The notes under the pieces are model-generated. The model saw only the letters and a program-made list of their open reading frames with translations, was not told the origin of the DNA and made no database searches. The position numbers were made by a program, and so were the translations under genes. A stretch of DNA of 64,000 bases, taken from assembly GCA_001817065.1 (NCBI GenBank), contig MHHQ01000015.1, positions 1,017-65,016 on the forward strand, read 5' to 3'. This DNA comes from Candidatus Andersenbacteria bacterium RIFCSPHIGHO2_02_FULL_46_16 (GTDB lineage Bacteria > Patescibacteriota > Andersenbacteria > UBA10190). Positions 10,349-45,635 of the stretch are shown piece after piece; within the stretch, counting starts at the first letter, position 1, and each line of letters begins with the position of its first letter.

Positions 10349-10483
10349 GTAACTGCTCACTGGTCTAGGAAGACTATTGGCTAAGATAAGACGTTATAAT
10401 TTTTCACTTTTAAGAAAACCTTCTTTTTCTGGCTCTAAATATGGCTTAACCTAGTAATCCACCCTTAACCTGTGAGCAGTTAC
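10349..10483. mobile_element. 135-bp MITE (copy 1) with 12-bp perfect TIRs gtaactgctcac/gtgagcagttac, flanked by 8-bp TSD ACGGGCAT
   Basis: Same 135-bp sequence (about 4 substitutions) recurs at 43384-43518; direct repeat acgggcat at 10341-10348 and 10484-10491. Confidence 0.75.
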
Positions 10484-13526: not shown

Positions 13527-13994
13527 TCTGGTGGGGAATAATGAAGTCAATATACTTGTAGCTAGCGATATAAATGAGGTTTTTGTAAGTAAATTTATGA
13601 AGATAGAACAAGTTAGGCAAAGTCGTGAAACGACGAGCAGAACAAGGTGAAGCTATGCTAAGCGAGGTGAAGCCAACGATATTAGGTAATAGAGCGAAGC
13701 AAGTGGATTTCGTCTAACGTATCGCTATATCCGAAGTTCTGCGGAGCGTAGCGGAGCAAAATATGGGTGGAGGCTTTTGTATAAAAGCCGTAACCGGATA
13801 CTTGTTGTTAGCTGATGTATATGTTTTTCTCTAATTTAAGAGTTGGGCGATAGCCCAAAAAAGAAAAGGAATATTTCAGCTAACGTTTACGCATCATCTG
13901 AAGTTTTCATCCCGACTTAGCAGGATAAACTTTTTATTTCAGACTACGCTTTATTTAATTATCTCCGCCTAAATCTTCATCTAAACTAAGGGGT

Positions 13995-14065
13995 GAAAAT
14001 TTGGGTCGAGAAAAGTTTTCACTCCTTGTTAATTCTAATAATGAAAAATTTTGGAGCCAGATATG
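13995..14065. repeat. Island repeat module A (AAATTTGGG + covarying hairpin + CCAGATATG)
   Basis: Homologous to modules at 14816-14890 and 17204-17280; interrupted at its 3' end by the 172-bp GC-rich element. Confidence 0.6.
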
Positions 14066-14233
14066 GAAGTCACATTATGAAATGCCACAAATATAGTGAC
14101 GGGCCCTGTCGGCGCTGCACCCCCACCCGACGGCTTCGGCCTGCCAGGCGGGCAGCCTGCAGGCGCTCGGTGGGGGTCCCCCGCGCCGCCACCCGTTTAT
14201 TTAAGAGTGGCATTTCATAATGTGACATCTATA
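14062..14233. repeat. 172-bp GC-rich palindromic element, copy 1
   Basis: Identical except 1 nt to copies at 41665-41836 and 45464-45635; 20-bp perfect TIR gtcacattatgaaatgccac / gtggcatttcataatgtgac; ~75% GC core. Confidence 0.8.
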
Positions 14234-14274
14234 GTTGGTGTTGGGCGATGTTGGATTTCATTTTCCATTCCTTA

Positions 14275-14688
14275 TTATTGTATTTTAAATAAATCGCCGT
14301 TTAGTATAACTGGTTGCATTGCAAGAAGTTCGTCAGTATAAATCATCTCTGGAATATCATTTAATATGAAAATTGTTTTATTCAAACAGTGCGCAAAACC
14401 CATTTCCAAAAAAGAATTGCCCCCGATATAATTACGAATACCCTTTTTATCAATATTAACTATCAATACAGCATCAGCGTTTTTAATCTTCTCAAAATAA
14501 TCACGAATTAAATCATGTTCAATCTTGTTTTTGGTAGATTCGTGAGAAGATTCCTCGGCCAATACTTTTTCGGCATATTTCTTGGTGTGTTTCGGTAATA
14601 CAACTTCGTGATTATTTTGAAGCAATTCTTTTTTAGCGGCTAACATTTGAACAGCTGACGACATGCTTCCGCAAATAACAATTTTCAT
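14275..14688 (-). CDS. Nucleoside 2-deoxyribosyltransferase-like (NDT/SLOG-fold) protein
   Basis: MKIVICGSMS N-terminus and GGNSFLEMGFAHCLNKTIFILN resemble the NDT-family Gly-rich start and catalytic Glu segment. Confidence 0.5.
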   Translation of the reverse strand: MKIVICGSMSSAVQMLAAKKELLQNNHEVVLPKHTKKYAEKVLAEESSHESTKNKIEHDLIRDYFEKIKNADAVLIVNIDKKGIRNYIGGNSFLEMGFAHCLNKTIFILNDIPEMIYTDELLAMQPVILNGDLFKIQ

Positions 14689-14815
14689 ATTTTTCTGTGG
14701 CTAGGTGATTTATTTAAAATATTTTTATAAAGGGAAAATGGAAGCCAATTTCGCACAATGTTTCGGGATATCTGATGTTTCTGGCTCGATTCAATATAAA
14801 TGTAGAAAAGAGCCT

Positions 14816-14890
14816 GAAATATGGGTCGAAGAAATTTGACATACCTTATTTATTAAATGCGTCAAATTTCTGAGCTAGATATCCCGTGTT
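14816..14890. repeat. Island repeat module B
   Basis: AAATATGGGTCGAAGAAATTTGAC...GTCAAATTTCTGAGCTAGATATCCCGTGTT; hairpin stem AAATTTGAC/GTCAAATTT. Confidence 0.6.
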
Positions 14891-14938
14891 CTGCGACCCG
14901 AAGGGCTTGAGTCGCAAAAAAATTTATAATCGGCTTGG

Positions 14939-15481
14939 TCACTTCTTAATTTTAGTTTCAGGATACCTTACGATAACAGAAAAAATATCCCCTTTATCGT
15001 CCAGCTCATCAAGTCTAGTAAAAAGGTCCAAAACTATGTCATCAGTAATATCTTCTTTAAGCCGTATAATGAGCGCGCGATTGATTCCGAGTTGTTTATA
15101 TAAACTTTCCATCGCTTGAAATTTTCTCTCTTTATTTTTAACAACGGTATGCTTTCCGCTGGTTACATCCACTGCGTAGTTTTTGCCATGGAAGGTAAAC
15201 ATCATGTCAATGCCGAGCATACGATCCAATAAAATATCTTTCGGTAAATCAGATAGCTTTAGGCCTTCATCGCGCAACTTTTGCACCACCAGTTCATATC
15301 TCTGCGGAAAGCCCTGTTTGACCTGCTCTAAGATTTTTCCCTCGCCATCTTCAAGAGAGAAAATTTCAACGCCAAGATCGCGCGCGGCTTCAATCAGTTT
15401 GTGCATTCTTTGCTCTGCCAACATTGAAACTTCGTTTACATAGTTTGGGGATATTTTTTCTTGTTTTGGTGATTCAAACAT
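14939..15481 (-). CDS. Hypothetical protein (180 aa)
   Basis: ORF track; same orientation as the other island genes; no recognisable family. Confidence 0.45.
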   Translation of the reverse strand: MFESPKQEKISPNYVNEVSMLAEQRMHKLIEAARDLGVEIFSLEDGEGKILEQVKQGFPQRYELVVQKLRDEGLKLSDLPKDILLDRMLGIDMMFTFHGKNYAVDVTSGKHTVVKNKERKFQAMESLYKQLGINRALIIRLKEDITDDIVLDLFTRLDELDDKGDIFSVIVRYPETKIKK

Positions 15482-15855
15482 AGATTATAAATTTTTTGCT
15501 ATTTCCGATAAAGTCGTCGGTATATCTGAAGTTTACGACTAAAACTTTAGTTTTAGGAAGTAAATTTAAGATATACCGTGCTAGGCAAAGTCGCGAAACG
15601 ACGAGCAGAACACGGCGCAGCCGACGACTTTATGCAAAAGAGCGAAGCGATTTTGCATAACGTTTCAGAATATGCGATATTTGCCAGCGGTACAATATGC
15701 CCGAAGGGCGACCGCTGGCAAATATGGGTGTAGCGACCAGCGGGAGCGGAACCGCATATTCTGTGTTATACGCGCCGAAGGCCGAGCCAGAGTGCAACGT
15801 CCCGTAGCGAAGCGGAGGGCTGGCGAAGAGTCCGTCCCGCCCGACACTTCATCAC

Positions 15856-16350
15856 TTACTTTGTTTGCAAAAGGGCAGAAATTTTGTTTTCCAGATGGTC
15901 AATCCCGCCAAATTCTTTGACCGGAATTGATTTTATTTTGGCTCTCGTTTCAGGATTAACATGTGTAATTGTCATTTCTTCTGTTCCGCCGATACTTTCG
16001 CAATCATCTTCTATGAGTACATCTGGCATGACTCTCTCAGCTACATTTTTGTATTCTTCATCTCCGAGGCGGAATAGAAGTTGACCGTCTGGAAAATTGA
16101 ACTGTTTCAAAACCGCACGAACAGCTTCTATTTCATCTGACTTTCGACGTGATGTGAGATACAAAATTTCTGCCCCTTGGTTTTTCCACGAAGTCAATTT
16201 TTTCACTGCGCCACCGATTGGCACATATGAAGTATATTCCTTCACAGAAGGCTCTTTGGCTTTAACCTGTTGCACAATTTTCTCATGTGAATGCCCTACT
16301 GCGTTTTTGTGCATCGTTATTGTGCCTTCTGTGAATACCATGATTTTCAT
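15856..16350 (-). CDS. Hypothetical protein (about 164 aa, start MKIMVFTEGTI)
   Basis: ORF track 15856-16449; internal ATG at 16350 preferred; no recognisable family. Confidence 0.4.
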   Translation of the reverse strand: MKIMVFTEGTITMHKNAVGHSHEKIVQQVKAKEPSVKEYTSYVPIGGAVKKLTSWKNQGAEILYLTSRRKSDEIEAVRAVLKQFNFPDGQLLFRLGDEEYKNVAERVMPDVLIEDDCESIGGTEEMTITHVNPETRAKIKSIPVKEFGGIDHLENKISALLQTK

Positions 16351-16723
16351 AATAGCAGTGAAAAATTGATGTCCTTTATAAATTGTACCAATTAAGGGCG
16401 GGACGGATTGCGTATAACGTTCACCGATAAGCGAAGTTTTATTGAGCAAAGCGAAATAAAATTTGGGAAAATGCCGAGCCGAGGCATTTTCCGCTTATCG
16501 CGTTGTTAAACGACCCGAGCCCGCCTTTCCTTATTATAATATAAAATAATAAGGCGGGCAGAGCGCAGCGGGGCTTGAGTTTTGTTCAAAAATATATTCC
16601 TTATTAAATAAGCCCTTCTGAAATTTTTCGTCCGCGCTTGATTGACTTTTTGGTCACGATATGCTTAAGTGTACTATCCAGTCAACTTCGACTGGCAACG
16701 ACAATTAAAAGGAGGATAATGAT

Positions 16724-16972
16724 ATGCCATACGATCCGAGACCAGTAAGTGAGGGTGGCAACAGCGGTATCGACGAACGGTTTTCGCGAAAGGCTCCATC
16801 TGGAAAGTTCCGCGTCGTCATGGTTGACACATTTGACGGCACGGACTCTGTTGTCGGCGACTACACGCGCCGAGGCGCACAGAGGGTCGCCAAGAAAAAG
16901 GGTGGCGAAATGACCAAGATGTACGTTTACAACGACGAGGGTAAGTGCGTTGGGGAAACCGGAACTTTCTAG
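16724..16972 (+). CDS. Small hypothetical protein (82 aa), high-GC
   Basis: Perfect SD AAGGAGG 8 nt upstream of ATG; terminator hairpin 17005-17043 downstream; opposite strand to neighbouring island genes. Confidence 0.6.
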   Translation: MPYDPRPVSEGGNSGIDERFSRKAPSGKFRVVMVDTFDGTDSVVGDYTRRGAQRVAKKKGGEMTKMYVYNDEGKCVGETGTF

Positions 16973-17004
16973 TCGCAACTCATCATCAAGCCCAGTCGGC
17001 CATG

Positions 17005-17043
17005 GCCTGCTTGCATATGAATAATGTGGGCAGGTCTTTTTTT
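17005..17043 (+). terminator. Rho-independent terminator
   Basis: gcctgc...gcaggt stem followed by TTTTTTT. Confidence 0.5.
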
Positions 17044-17203
17044 GTAAAAATTTCAAAAGGGCTTAAATTTAAAATGAAAAAATATTTTTGAACAAAATTT
17101 CGTTTAACGTATCGGCATCATCTGAAGTTGCGCCCATTTTCAAAGGCTAAAACTTCAAATTTCCACCTATCATTATTATATCACCAAACTTTTATGTCAC
17201 GGC

Positions 17204-17280
17204 GCAATTTGGGAGAAGAAATTTTGCATGCCTTGATTTATAATTGTGCAAAATTTCTGAACCAGATATGCCGTGTTAGC
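17204..17280. repeat. Island repeat module C
   Basis: CAATTTGGGAGAAGAAATTTTGCA...TGCAAAATTTCTGAACCAGATATGCCGTGTT; 10-bp stem AAATTTTGCA/TGCAAAATTT. Confidence 0.6.
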
Positions 17281-17297
17281 TGATGTAAATTTAAAAA

Positions 17298-17585
17298 TTA
17301 TTTTTGAAACTTCCTTTGACAATCTATTGCAACTTTTATACATTCTTCCGGATCATACCCAAGGTCTTCACACCATCTTATCGTCGAAAATATAATATTA
17401 CCCAGTTCTTTTTTAAGTTCATCATCGGTATGCACACTTTTATCTTTTACAGCGTCACGTTCCCAGCGACAAATATCACCAAACACCTTGCCCATACGGA
17501 CAATGATTTGACTGAGGCTTAATTTCTGGTCGCCCCAAATATCGCGGCTTTGTTGCAATAGATTTTTTATTTCCATAGATTTCAA
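17298..17585 (-). CDS. MazG-like nucleotide pyrophosphohydrolase (small all-alpha NTP-PPase)
   Basis: 95 aa; ELKKELGNIIFSTIRWCEDLGYDPEECIKVAI resembles the MazG EXXE...ELGDxL...LgiD helix signature. Confidence 0.55.
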   Translation of the reverse strand: MKSMEIKNLLQQSRDIWGDQKLSLSQIIVRMGKVFGDICRWERDAVKDKSVHTDDELKKELGNIIFSTIRWCEDLGYDPEECIKVAIDCQRKFQK

Positions 17586-17673
17586 AAATAATTTTTAAAT
17601 TTATTTCAGCTAACTGGTTATTAAATGAACTTACGGATGTACTTTAGCATAATTTAGTATGTTATGCATACTT

Positions 17674-17682
17674 TTGATATAA
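17674..17682 (+). promoter_or_regulatory. Extended -10 element TGATATAAT for the recombinase gene
   Basis: TGaTATAAT lies 8 nt upstream of the GTG start at 17690, which would make the mRNA leaderless. Confidence 0.4.
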
Positions 17683-17689
17683 TAGTGAT

Positions 17690-18502
17690 GTGGAAAATGT
17701 TTTGGATAAAACCGAACGGATATTGCGATTGCGTAACTATAGTTCAAAGACTCGTAAAGCGTATTTGCTATATATAAAGGATTTTATCACGTTTTCCAAG
17801 AGAGTAGGTATTAGAAATAAACAAAAAGCAATTGAAGAGTTTTTACTTGATAAACATAAGCGAGGACAATCGCCGCAGACAATTAATCTTGCGTTGAATG
17901 CAGTGAAGTTTTTTTACCGCGAAGTATTAAAAGATCCGCAAAAAATAGATTTGAAAATGGCCAAGAGAAGTAAGAAATTGCCGGTTGTACTTTCACGCGC
18001 GGAAATTAAGAAGATTATTGATGGTACCAAGAACACAAAATATCGGTTAATGATTGCGCTGGGTTATGCCTGCGGTTTGCGAGTGAGCGAAGCGGTCAGT
18101 CTAAAAGTGCAGGATTTGGATATTGATGAATTGGTTGTCCACATAAAAAAAGGAAAGGGAAAAAAAGACAGAATTAGCGTATTACCGGAAAAATTGCAAA
18201 ACAATCTACGCAATTTAATAGCTGGTAAGAATAAAGGAGAATATGTTTTTAGTTCCAACCGTGGCGGACTCCTGACCACAACATCTTTACAAAAGATGTT
18301 TCGTCAAAGTTTGGCAAACGCGAGGATTAACAAGTTGGCAACTTTCCATTCATTGCGTCATTCTTTCGCGACGCACTTGCTGGAAAATGGCATCGATGTG
18401 CGCTACGTCCAAGAATTGCTTGGGCACGCCAATATCAGAACGACGCAAATATATACACGGGTGACAAATCCCGGGTTAAAGAAGATAAAAAGCCCGCTAT
18501 GA
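17690..18502 (+). CDS. Tyrosine site-specific recombinase (XerC/XerD-like integrase, 270 aa)
   Basis: C-terminal HSLRHSFATHLLENGIDVRYVQELLGHANIRTTQIYTRV carries the R..H..R..Y catalytic signature; N-terminal SAM-like core-binding domain; GTG start. Confidence 0.85.
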   Translation: MENVLDKTERILRLRNYSSKTRKAYLLYIKDFITFSKRVGIRNKQKAIEEFLLDKHKRGQSPQTINLALNAVKFFYREVLKDPQKIDLKMAKRSKKLPVVLSRAEIKKIIDGTKNTKYRLMIALGYACGLRVSEAVSLKVQDLDIDELVVHIKKGKGKKDRISVLPEKLQNNLRNLIAGKNKGEYVFSSNRGGLLTTTSLQKMFRQSLANARINKLATFHSLRHSFATHLLENGIDVRYVQELLGHANIRTTQIYTRVTNPGLKKIKSPL

Positions 18503-22609: not shown

Positions 22610-23650
22610 TTAGATTAGGTATTTCTTGATAGAGATAGCTAATCCAAGCGAACCCATAACGATTGAGGCAACACTGGTTGCACCGGCGCCGGTGGCAGCT
22701 GTCACCGGAACTGGGATGGGTGAAGTGGGTTGGGTCGTAGTTACTGCTTTGACACCACCTGGTATAGACACGATAGTGGTGTCTGTGTCGGTGTCGGAGA
22801 GACCCTTGTTTTCACTACGGGCTTTAACGGAATTGACTAGAGATTTGCCGTCTGAGGCATCTTTATCAACTTTAACTTCGACAAAGAAGGTTAATGTTTC
22901 GCCGCCACTGATAGCGATATCAGACCAGGTAATTGTGCGGCCTTCGATGAATCCGCCGCTAGATACTCGAGTGATAGCGACTAAACTAGGAATGGTATCG
23001 GTTACTACTAGATCATCAACAGTTCCTTCCCCATCATTTTTGACAGTGATTTCGTAGGTTAGGACATGGCCGGGACGAGTGATAGCGCGATGATCCGTTT
23101 TAGTCACTGTTAAGCTAGCTGCCTTATCGTTATCGTCTTCTGGTTCAGGGGAAGGACTAGGACTGGGTGATGGAGATGGCGAGGGACTGGGTGATGGTGA
23201 AGGACTGGGACTTGGACTAGGACTGGGTGATGGAGATGGACTTGGAGACGGAGATGGTGAAGGACTGGGACTTGGACTAGGACTGGGTGATGGAGATGGA
23301 CTTGGTGATGGAGATGGTGAAGGACTTGGACTTGGAGACGGAGATGGTGAAGGACTTGGACTGGGTGATGGAGATGGCGAGGGACTTGGACTGGGTGATG
23401 GAGATGGACTAGGACTGGGTGATGGAGATGGGCTTGGAGACGGAGATGGTGAAGGACTTGGACTGGGTGATGGAGATGGGCAAGGGGAGGGGCTGGGTGA
23501 GGGAGAAGGTGTTGGAGAGTCACAGTAACATGCAGCGTCCGTGCTTTTTGGATTTATAAACGCTGATGCAGTTCCTGCTATCGCTACGATCAAAGTTATC
23601 GCAAGGAGGCGATTGATCCATTTGATTTTGTTTTGATTATCGCCGGTCAT
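22610..23650 (-). CDS. Cell-surface protein: signal peptide, long (Ser-Pro)n linker, DUF11-like conserved repeat domain, C-terminal TM anchor
   Basis: About 75 SP dipeptides; [42 protein letters not shown] is DUF11-like; C-terminal hydrophobic [12 protein letters not shown]. Confidence 0.7.
23150..23520. repeat. Tandem hexanucleotide repeat (SP codons) with nested 60-bp higher-order period
   Basis: 60-bp units at 23198-23257 and 23258-23317 are identical; ggagatgg/ggtgatgg units throughout. Confidence 0.8.
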
Positions 23651-41664: not shown

Positions 41665-41836
41665 TATGGAAGTCACATTATGAAATGCCACAAATATAGT
41701 GACGGGCCCTGTCGGCGCTGCCCCCCCACCCGACGGCTTCGGCCTGCCAGGCGGGCAGCCTGCAGGCGCTCGGTGGGGGTCCCCCGCGCCGCCACCCGTT
41801 TATTTAAGAGTGGCATTTCATAATGTGACATCTATA
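41665..41836. repeat. 172-bp GC-rich palindromic element, copy 2
   Basis: Differs from copies 1 and 3 by a single A to C change (gctgcccccccacc). Confidence 0.8.
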
Positions 41837-43235: not shown

Positions 43236-43810
43236 ATGCTGAAAGTGTTTTTAAGGTTTCGCGGGATTTCGGATGATGTCAAAACGATATTTGATAAGGA
43301 GGCACCCTTTAAGAAGATTATTGCAGAAATGCAAGGGATCAGCATGCCAACTATCACTTCTTCTGTTCGTATGGCTACTAAGGGTAACTGCTCACTGGTC
43401 GAGGAGGACTATTGGCTAAGATAAGACGTTATAATTTTTCACTTTTAAGAAAACCTTCTTTTTCTGGCTCTAAATATGGCTTAACCTAGTAATCCACCCT
43501 TAACCGGTGAGCAGTTACTACTAAGGAATGCTCTGAAAATATCCAGAGACTTGTAGCAGCGGAGGGTGAAGCTAAAGATGTTGAAATTGAAATTGATGAT
43601 GTATCAATGAATCTTTATGGAGACAGCGATTTTTCCTTTGAAGTCGTTGGTGATGGGATCTGGTTGACAATTGGGGGTGGTCTTAAGCTATTCTTTCAAG
43701 GTAAAAGTGCGGGTTATTTTACGGAGGCAATGACTGGAATCCTAGGAACCTTGAGTCGACTAAATCATGTCATTAGCGATTTCCCTTTTAATCCTAAGGA
43801 AGATGATTAG
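43236..43810 (+). pseudogene. Gene for an approx. 144-aa hypothetical protein split by a MITE insertion
   Basis: Strong SD AAGGGAGG before ATG 43236; removing the element (43384-43518) plus one copy of the TSD joins ORF 43236-43424 in frame to ORF 43607-43810. Confidence 0.7.
43384..43518. mobile_element. 135-bp MITE (copy 2), TIRs gtaactgctcac/gtgagcagttac, 8-bp TSD TACTAAGG
   Basis: TACTAAGG at 43376-43383 and 43519-43526; element is about 97% identical to copy 1 at 10349-10483. Confidence 0.8.
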
Positions 43811-45463: not shown

Positions 45464-45635
45464 TATGGAAGTCACATTATGAAATGCCACAAATATAGTG
45501 ACGGGCCCTGTCGGCGCTGCACCCCCACCCGACGGCTTCGGCCTGCCAGGCGGGCAGCCTGCAGGCGCTCGGTGGGGGTCCCCCGCGCCGCCACCCGTTT
45601 ATTTAAGAGTGGCATTTCATAATGTGACATCTATA
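45464..45635. repeat. 172-bp GC-rich palindromic element, copy 3
   Basis: Identical to copy 1. Confidence 0.8.

What the first reader, a model, noticed from the sequence alone, without database searches (positions are those of the whole stretch)
14062..14233. 172-bp GC-rich palindromic element in three near-identical copies: a candidate structured RNA or non-autonomous mobile element
Copies at 14062-14233, 41665-41836 and 45464-45635 are identical apart from one substitution. The ends form a 27-bp terminal inverted repeat (tatggaagtcacattatgaaatgccac / gtggcatttcataatgtgacatctata) whose inner 20 bp pair perfectly. The ~100-bp core is about 75% GC in a genome of about 47% GC. It contains nested pairing potential: GGCTTCGGCC is a UUCG-tetraloop hairpin, GCCTGCAGGC is a perfect palindrome, and CCCCCACC can pair with GGTGGGGG. 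No target-site duplication is evident, which argues against a classical cut-and-paste MITE. The long terminal stem, GC-rich multi-hairpin core and near-identity between copies fit either a recently mobile IS200/IS605- or IS110-type derivative or a selfish or functional structured RNA. All copies are intergenic. Copy 1 interrupts island repeat module A right after its CCAGATATG motif.
Basis: seen in the sequence. Interest (0 to 1): 0.75.

Follow-up and report, generated by a model that had tools for sequence, protein, structure and literature searches.

The report
TA-duplicating MITE in a CPR bacterium
The three repeats are copies of a small non-coding "jumping" DNA element (a MITE) that has recently spread to about 17 places in the tiny genome of a groundwater Candidatus Andersenbacteria bacterium, duplicating a TA at each insertion. 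It is an ordinary kind of element, unusual only for its very GC-rich hairpin core, its host lineage and the absence of any visible parent transposase.

Summary
There are three 172-bp copies differing by one substitution, with perfect 20-bp inner inverted repeats and an 82%-GC core in a 45%-GC window.

The outer TA on each side is a 2-bp target duplication around a 168-bp element (TGGAAG…CATCTA, 25-bp TIRs):
- One site, seen in two independent assemblies, carries TT…TT instead of TA…TA.
- At another site, removing exactly 170 bp restores a 352-aa gene collinear with full-length homologues.
- Two paralogous uninterrupted sequences also fit a 170-bp insertion.
- The 28 flanks give a palindromic target consensus, A-W-C|TA|G-W-T.

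The element occupies 17 distinct sites in one Candidatus Andersenbacteria (CPR/Patescibacteria) population from the Rifle aquifer. Copies lie in both orientations and in varied gene contexts. It is absent from syntenic loci of the closest relatives.

It has no Rfam match. The 20-nt TIR core found no other copies in the genome or viral contig collections, and the whole element matched nothing in phages or plasmids. No parent IS was found.

Verdict: a new family of a well-known kind, a TA-duplicating MITE that works like Correia or RUP and is most likely of IS630/Tc1-mariner type. It is currently an orphan. Interest is low to moderate.

The parts
14062..14063 (.). Copy 1, left target-site duplication (TA)
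   Evidence: 2-bp TSD inferred from the TT/TT variant site, ORF restoration and module-A paralogue spacing
14064..14088 (+). Copy 1, left terminal inverted repeat TGGAAGTCACATTATGAAATGCCAC (25 nt)
14100..14195 (.). Copy 1, GC-rich (82%) imperfectly palindromic core that continues the TIR stem
14207..14231 (-). Copy 1, right terminal inverted repeat (reverse complement TAGATGTCACATTATGAAATGCCAC; 23/25 match to the left TIR)
14232..14233 (.). Copy 1, right target-site duplication (TA)
   Evidence: as for the left TSD
41665..41666 (.). Copy 2, left TSD (TA)
   Evidence: Paralogous uninterrupted sequence in L016 (…CCAAACCA|TAACAAATCGG…) matches copy 2 minus 170 bp
41667..41834 (+). Copy 2, element proper (168 bp; TIRs 41667-41691 and 41810-41834; core 41703-41798; private A->C at 41722)
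41835..41836 (.). Copy 2, right TSD (TA)
45464..45465 (.). Copy 3, left TSD (TA)
45466..45633 (+). Copy 3, element proper (168 bp; TIRs 45466-45490 and 45609-45633; core 45502-45597), in the divergent promoter region between the UDP-glucose dehydrogenase and MFS genes
   Evidence: absent from the syntenic intergenic region of relatives
45634..45635 (.). Copy 3, right TSD (TA)

Best explanation
[quoted passage not shown] It is a 168-bp non-coding DNA transposon remnant with 25-bp terminal inverted repeats. A DDE-type transposase supplied in trans moved it by cut-and-paste.

The TA duplication and the CTAG-like symmetric target are the hallmark of the IS630/Tc1-mariner superfamily. The TA-duplicating IS5/IS427 subgroup is the alternative parent.

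The family expanded recently to about 17 near-identical copies in one Candidatus Andersenbacteria (CPR) population. No autonomous partner is visible, so it is currently an orphan, like the Correia elements.

Shown: copy number, TIRs, the 2-bp TSD, the target preference, gene disruption at one site, and absence from sister species. Inferred: the DDE cut-and-paste chemistry, the parent family, and any effect of the GC-rich hairpin on neighbouring transcripts (termination, RNase processing).
For: - Dispersed copies: 17 distinct sites with unrelated flanks, in the window, 9 assemblies of the same population and 32 metagenome loci. Many contigs break inside the element.
- TSD, variant site: L034 (left end) and L033 (right end) are two sides of the same locus in two independent assemblies. 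They read …ACTAAC TT TGGAAG… and …CATCTA TT CTTACAGG…. This is a direct TT/TT repeat where every other copy has TA/TA.
- TSD, gene restoration: at site L017/L038, removing exactly 170 bp (one TA kept) restores a 374-codon open frame (352 aa from its first Met). Removing 168 or 172 bp truncates it after 10 or 20 codons. The restored protein is collinear across the junction with the 346-aa DUF7309/DUF6930 homologue P0121 (55% identity, E 1e-139). More than 200 homologues were found, and nearly all of the 120 listed are full-length.
- TSD, paralogues: a paralogue of the copy-2 flank (L016) and two paralogues of module A (14867-, 17254-) keep register only if 170 bp are removed.
- Symmetric target: position -3 is A in 21/28 flanks (P = 2e-7) and position -1 is C in 16/28 (P = 8e-5) and never T.
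- Orientation: both orientations occur relative to the very strong local GC skew (12 vs 5, P = 0.14). Gene contexts are convergent, tandem, divergent and intragenic.
- Absence in relatives: the element is missing from syntenic loci of relatives whose UDP-glucose dehydrogenase is 93-95% identical.
- Known-class fit: no Rfam match. Bacterial MITEs are described as <200 bp, with TIRs, terminal 5'-TA-3' and TSDs, and RUP is attributed to IS630-Spn1 because of its TA target (PMC2229807).
Against: - No autonomous element with these ends was found. The inner 20-nt TIR is absent from 185,579 species-representative genomes (one hit, of the order expected by chance by my estimate), from 2.9 M viral contigs, and from everything except MITE copies in 241 M metagenome records.
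- No diverged ends occur in 513 kb of fetched DNA.
- No IS-length repeat occurs in a mostly non-redundant 201 kb sample of this organism.
- No transposase domain is present among the window's ORFs of at least 150 aa, almost all of which were scanned.
- No exact orthologous empty site could be aligned, because the intergenic DNA of the nearest relatives is too diverged.
- The element is not A+T-rich as typical bacterial MITEs are. Its 82%-GC core is unexplained.
- Assignment to IS630 rather than IS5/IS427 rests on the TSD and target only.
Confidence: 0.88

Rival explanations
1. Same MITE biology, but the parent is a TA-duplicating member of the IS5 family (IS427/ISL2-type subgroups, YTAR/CTAG targets) rather than IS630/Tc1-mariner.
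For: The 2-bp TA duplication and C|TA|G context fit both families. The ends contain GGAAG, reminiscent of IS5-family termini (from my own knowledge of IS5 ends, not tested).
Against: No IS5-like transposase or matching IS end was found either. In prokaryotes, a strict 2-bp TA duplication is most typical of IS630.
Confidence: 0.2
2. A multi-copy structured non-coding RNA gene, or a cis-regulatory RNA such as a large bidirectional terminator or RNase III substrate. On this reading the repeats are maintained for function and mobility is secondary.
For: The predicted fold is very stable. The GC-rich stem is followed by TTTATTT on the + strand. Twelve of 17 copies are co-oriented with the local GC skew, taken here as a proxy for gene direction. 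Correia and ERIC elements are known to be exapted in this way (PMC10969869).
Against: There is no Rfam hit even at E<=10. Both strands fold equally well because the element is a palindrome. Copies sit in a divergent promoter region, between tandem genes, at a gene's 3' end and inside a gene. TSDs show that each copy arrived by transposition. The element is absent from sister species. The orientation bias is not significant (P = 0.14). The terminator scan finds nothing. The copies are too similar for covariation.
Confidence: 0.05
3. A derivative of an IS200/IS605 element (a PATE) or an IS110-type element, moved as single-stranded DNA or by a DEDD recombinase without target duplication.
For: Extensive hairpin potential. 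No TSD longer than 2 bp.
Against: The element has long perfect TIRs. A direct 2-bp duplication is demonstrated. The target consensus is symmetric on both sides, not a fixed 4-5-mer on the left only. Both orientations occur relative to strand skew. No TnpA, TnpB or IS110 ORF is present in the window.
Confidence: 0.02
4. Local segmental duplication or an assembly or contaminant artefact.
For: One public assembly (LCKH01/Ga0075963) has every copy mangled. Scaffolds carry Ns there.
Against: There are 17 sites with unrelated flanks. The element has identical boundaries in independent assemblies from NCBI, ENA and JGI.
Confidence: 0.01

Closest known systems
Correia repeat-enclosed elements (CREE/NEMIS) of Neisseria
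   Same: About 100-200 bp and non-coding, with ~26-bp TIRs and terminal TA duplication. Dozens of near-identical copies are mostly intergenic but sometimes disrupt genes. The whole element folds into a long hairpin. No cognate transposase is known (PMC2229807, PMC10969869).
   Different: The sequence is unrelated: the 20-nt TIR core is absent from all representative genomes. The core is 82% GC rather than A+T-rich. There are ~17 copies rather than more than 100. The host is a CPR bacterium. Promoter, IHF-site and RNase III roles are demonstrated for Correia but untested here.
RUP (repeat unit of pneumococcus) / IS630-Spn1
   Same: A small TIR element that inserts at TA. This is the textbook case of a bacterial MITE attributed to an IS630-family transposase (PMC2229807).
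   Different: RUP has an identified parent IS with matching TIRs in the same genome. No parent was found here.
Stowaway-type MITEs (Tc1/mariner-derived) of eukaryotes; ERIC/IRU of enterobacteria
   Same: TA target duplication, TIRs, and a strongly palindromic overall structure (from my own knowledge).
   Different: Different domains or lineages, with no sequence relationship tested or expected.
IS200/IS605-derived PATEs and REP/BIME elements
   Same: Small, hairpin-forming, GC-rich palindromic repeats in intergenic DNA.
   Different: Those lack TIRs and TSDs and are moved as ssDNA by Y1 transposases/RAYTs with strand bias. Here a TSD and a symmetric target are shown.

Membership tests
Prokaryotic MITE (non-autonomous class II element) | Small (<~300 bp) with no coding capacity | tested here: met
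   168 bp. ORFs overlapping the copies differ between copies and run into the flanks.
Prokaryotic MITE (non-autonomous class II element) | Terminal inverted repeats | tested here: met
   25-bp TIRs, 23/25 matching, inner 20 perfect.
Prokaryotic MITE (non-autonomous class II element) | Target-site duplication of fixed length | tested here: met
   2 bp. The TT/TT variant site, the ORF restored only by removing 170 bp, and paralogue spacing all agree.
Prokaryotic MITE (non-autonomous class II element) | Multiple dispersed copies with unrelated flanks and high identity | tested here: met
   17 sites. The copies differ from one another only by a few point substitutions; shorter versions in some assemblies look like assembly effects.
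Prokaryotic MITE (non-autonomous class II element) | Filled versus empty orthologous sites | tested here: inconclusive
   The element is absent from syntenic loci of 93-95%-identity relatives, but those intergenic regions are too diverged for base-level empty sites. No empty allele occurs among the fetched contigs of the same population.
IS630/Tc1-mariner-derived MITE | TA dinucleotide target, duplicated on insertion | tested here: met
   Nearly all of the 28 distinct ends examined carry TA; one site (two ends) carries TT. The context is A-W-C|TA|G-W-T.
IS630/Tc1-mariner-derived MITE | TIRs matching those of an IS630-family IS | tested here: not met
   No longer element carries the 20-nt TIR core in the genome, metagenome or viral collections. 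The whole element has no match in phages or plasmids. ISfinder was not available, so diverged parents are not excluded.
IS630/Tc1-mariner-derived MITE | Cognate DDE transposase in the host genome | tested here: inconclusive
   None among almost all window ORFs >=150 aa. No IS-length repeat in 201 kb of the genome. The rest of the ~1 Mb genome (size from my own knowledge of CPR genomes) was not examined.
IS200/IS605-derived PATE | No TIR and no TSD, insertion 3' of a fixed tetra/pentanucleotide, strand (replication) bias | tested here: not met
   TIRs and a TSD are present, the target is symmetric, and orientation is 12:5 relative to skew.
IS110-type derivative | No (or tiny) TIRs, no TSD, sequence-specific target | tested here: not met
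   25-bp TIRs, a 2-bp TSD and degenerate targets.
Any Rfam RNA family | Covariance-model match | tested here: not met
   No hit at gathering thresholds in the window. Only noise at E<=10 around copy 1.
Correia/NEMIS family | Sequence homology to the Neisseria element | tested here: not met
   The TIR 20-mer is absent from all 185,579 representative genomes except one hit in Eubacterium, of the order expected by chance. The resemblance is functional and architectural only.

The most novel reading that the evidence does not exclude
The element is an orphan MITE in a reduced, host-dependent CPR genome that appears to encode no matching transposase. Its recent burst would then have been driven by a transposase supplied from outside, by a phage, a plasmid or the bacterium's host organism. 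The compositionally foreign 82%-GC hairpin core would be a captured or selected functional module, such as a transcription or RNA-processing signal.
Probability: 0.07. Interest if true: 0.6.

Novelty: new member of a known kind. Interest (0 to 1): 0.27.

Why it matters
Scientific interest is modest.
- It documents active, or very recently active, cut-and-paste transposition in a Candidate Phyla Radiation bacterium with a small genome. My literature searches found no description of MITEs in this group.
- At least two MITE families coexist in this genome.
- One insertion has inactivated a conserved DUF7309/DUF6930 gene.

There is also a practical consequence. The element is a 170-bp near-perfect palindrome that breaks or corrupts metagenome assemblies. 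Many contigs end in it, and one public genome (LCKH01) has every copy truncated with flanking DNA lost. That matters for anyone using these MAGs.

Tried and rejected
- Rfam, at gathering thresholds on the whole window and at E<=10 around copy 1: nothing.
- blastn of the element against plasmids and phages: nothing.
- TIR 20-mer in genome contigs: a single hit inside Eubacterium hominis DNA, of the order expected by chance.
- TIR and core patterns in viral contigs: nothing, or one hit with no similarity beyond the 19-mer.
- Search for diverged TIRs (up to 5 substitutions) in 513 kb of fetched DNA: none.
- Search for an IS-length repeat in 201 kb: none.
- Orthologous empty sites in relatives: the element is absent, but the intergenic DNA is too diverged for base-level junctions.
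- Empty alleles among population contigs: none. The one odd hit turned out to be a useful paralogue.
- A replication or transcription strand-bias test for ssDNA transposition: not significant.
- Xer/dif-like recognition of the TIR by the nearby tyrosine recombinase (17690-18502): considered, because the TIR contains …TTCATAATGTGAC…. Rejected, because no second half-site exists and a staggered-cut TSD is demonstrated.
- The truncated copies in LCKH01/Ga0075963: considered as possible biological hairpin deletions. Rejected in favour of an assembly artefact, because every Ga0075963 copy is truncated 95-104 nt in from the same side in contig + orientation, whichever arm that is.
- Simple terminator scan: no hit.

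Full report
**Observation.** The only difference is A->C at 41722. Other assemblies of the same locus have A there, so the change is private to this strain. The 20-nt inner arm GTCACATTATGAAATGCCAC occurs six times against 0.01 expected. The 96-nt core (14100-14195) is 82% GC in a 45%-GC window and is the only non-coding stretch of that composition in the 64 kb. Either strand folds into one long imperfect hairpin (RNA dG -99.2 and -97.6 kcal/mol, z -8.9 and -7.2; DNA -56.9, z -8.9). Rfam has no match at gathering thresholds, and none at E<=10 around copy 1.

**Host and copy number.** The UDP-glucose dehydrogenase next to copy 3 is encoded, with identical sequence, on contigs of several Rifle-aquifer MAGs (GCA_001817135.1, GCA_001001305.1, GCA_001817175.1, GCA_003501005.1). 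It also occurs on ENA and JGI metagenome contigs. The sources name these 'Candidatus Andersenbacteria bacterium RIFCSPHIGHO2_12_FULL_46…' and 'Parcubacteria group bacterium GW2011_GWA2_45_14', which are CPR/Patescibacteria. The window carries ordinary chromosomal genes: argS, ileS, leuS, recO, parAB, topA, dprA and mfd.

A scan of 241 M metagenome records with the TIR 20-mer returned 32 loci. One is a chance hit and the rest are the same element. Clustering by flanks gives 17 distinct insertion sites. Many contigs terminate inside the element, as expected for a dispersed repeat. The 20-mer is absent from 185,579 species-representative genomes apart from one hit inside Eubacterium hominis DNA, of the order expected by chance. 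It is also absent from IMG/VR. The whole element has no match in phages or plasmids. One caveat: this species' own MAGs evidently are not in the representative set, so 'absent elsewhere' means absent as an exact 20-mer.

**The terminal TA is a target-site duplication.** Every copy begins TATGGAAG and ends ATCTATA, except at three sites. Four lines of evidence show that the outer dinucleotides come from the target.
- *Variant site.* L034 (left end, assembly Ga0075963) and L033 (right end, assembly Ga0209211) are the two sides of one locus, because the downstream flank of L034 is found 51 nt beyond the element in L033. They read …ACTAAC-TT-TGGAAG… and …CATCTA-TT-CTTACAGG…. A direct TT…TT repeat at one site, where all others have TA…TA, is what a 2-bp duplication of a non-canonical target predicts. 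A mutated inverted repeat would not give it.
- *Gene restoration.* At site L017/L038 the flanks are open reading frames. Deleting exactly 170 bp (one TA kept) yields a 374-codon open frame. Deleting 172 or 168 bp closes the frame after 20 or 10 codons. The restored 352-aa protein aligns across the junction (…NKWHD|TWQ… versus …NQWHN SWQ…) with a 346-aa homologue at 55% identity (E 1e-139). More than 200 two-domain DUF7309/DUF6930 homologues were found, nearly all of the 120 listed being full-length. Only a 194-aa N-terminal fragment is annotated in the host.
- *Copy-2 paralogue.* A paralogue of the copy-2 flank elsewhere in the genome (L016) reads …CCAAAC-CA-TAACAAATCGG…. It matches copy 2 minus 170 bp (…GGCAAAC-TA-TAACAAATCGG…) without a gap.
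Copy 1 matches that spacing only if 170 bp are removed.

The element proper is therefore 168 bp (TGGAAG…CATCTA) with 25-bp TIRs matching at 23 of 25 positions.

**Target and orientation.** I pooled 15 left flanks with 13 reverse-complemented right flanks. This gives A at -3 (21/28, P = 2e-7), A or T at -2 (23/28) and C at -1 (16/28, P = 8e-5; never T). The result is a palindromic A-W-C|TA|G-W-T target with a CTAG-like centre. A symmetric target is what a transposase dimer acting on double-stranded DNA would produce. Relative to the very strong local GC skew, copies lie 12:5, which is not significant (P = 0.14). The three window copies sit 42 bp from the 3' end of a minus-strand gene, between tandem genes, and between divergent gene starts. 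These facts rule out IS200/IS605-type ssDNA transposition (no TIR, no TSD, one-sided fixed target, strand bias). They also rule out IS110-type elements, and they argue against a strand-specific RNA gene.

**Phylogenetic distribution.** Contigs encoding the closest non-identical UDP-glucose dehydrogenases (93-95% identity) keep the gene order MFS, UDPGDH, NTP-transferase, FG-GAP protein, LeuRS. They contain no trace of the element. Their intergenic DNA is too diverged to give base-level empty sites. Within the population, all sampled contigs are filled at every site. With near-identity between copies, this points to a recent expansion that is now fixed in the sampled population.

**Parent element.** None was found. 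There were no diverged ends in 513 kb of fetched DNA and no IS-length repeat in 201 kb of mostly non-redundant sequence from this organism. No transposase domain appears among the window's ORFs of at least 150 aa, almost all of which were scanned. The only recombinase is a XerC/D-like tyrosine recombinase at 17690-18502. The family is therefore an orphan for now.

**Mechanism and classification.** The best-supported mechanism is trans-mobilisation by a DDE transposase that makes 2-nt staggered cuts at TA. This works like RUP/IS630-Spn1 and the Correia elements. Published descriptions of bacterial MITEs (<200 bp, TIRs, terminal 5'-TA-3', TSDs) fit, except that this one is not A+T-rich (PMC2229807; PMC10969869). 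Membership in the MITE class is met on every structural criterion. Membership in the IS630 lineage specifically rests on the TSD and target alone, and the TA-duplicating IS5/IS427 subgroup remains possible. The 82%-GC palindromic core is unexplained. It may reflect foreign origin, or selection for a stable stem. The + strand has TTTATTT directly after the stem, so a terminator-like effect is conceivable, but the simple terminator scan was negative and nothing here tests it.

**Verdict.** This is a real feature and a new family of a well-known kind of element. Interest is low to moderate. The points of note are the CPR host, the orphan status, the GC-rich core, and the damage this palindrome does to public assemblies.

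Noticed in passing
window 10349-10483 and 43384-43518; also L016 ~1155-1289, and L025/L041/L042: A second, unrelated MITE-like family. It is 135 bp, 98% identical between the window copies, with ~15-bp TIRs (GTAACTGCTCACTGG / CCGGTGAGCAGTTAC). The two window copies have clear 8-bp target duplications (ACGGGCAT and TACTAAGG). It occupies at least 4 sites in this genome. TSDs at the other two sites are absent or imperfect.
   Followed up: partly
L004 (GCA_001001305.1, LCKH01000011) and the Ga0075963 loci L012, L014, L021, L026-L030, L032, L034, L038, L039, L042: In this one public assembly every copy of the element is cut off 95-104 nt in, at the hairpin apex. The cut is always on the same side in contig + orientation, whichever arm that is. 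In the two L004 copies checked against complete assemblies, 40-60 bp of adjacent flank is also missing. This is a systematic assembly or curation artefact at a long palindrome. L002 has Ns at the same place.
   Followed up: partly
L017 485-656 / L038 (same site): One copy of the element interrupts a conserved DUF7309/DUF6930 gene. The host annotation keeps only a 194-aa fragment (UW94_C0018G0018). No intact allele was found in the protein collection.
   Followed up: yes
window 13527-17690: A low-GC (39-41%), zero-skew 'island' lies directly after argS. It contains repeated non-coding modules (13600-13653 ~ 15568-15621 at 83%; 'module A' at ~13989-14061, 14810-14890 and 17200-17285). It also holds small minus-strand ORFs, one weakly nucleoside 2-deoxyribosyltransferase-like. 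A tyrosine recombinase (17690-18502) bounds it. It may be an integrated element. The nature of the modules is unknown.
   Followed up: no
whole window: GC skew is exceptionally strong (about +0.3 in 2-kb windows), with nearly all genes on the + strand. It drops only in the 14-18 kb island and around 40-50 kb.
   Followed up: no
window 23088-23576: A degenerate tandem array with 6-nt (12/18/24) periodicity inside the minus-strand DUF11-domain ORF 22610-23650. It is probably a repetitive low-complexity protein segment.
   Followed up: no
L030 4970-5246 and L042 4143-4420: A 278-bp repeat, 93% identical and in inverted orientation, shared by two otherwise unrelated loci of the same genome. Not examined.
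   Followed up: no
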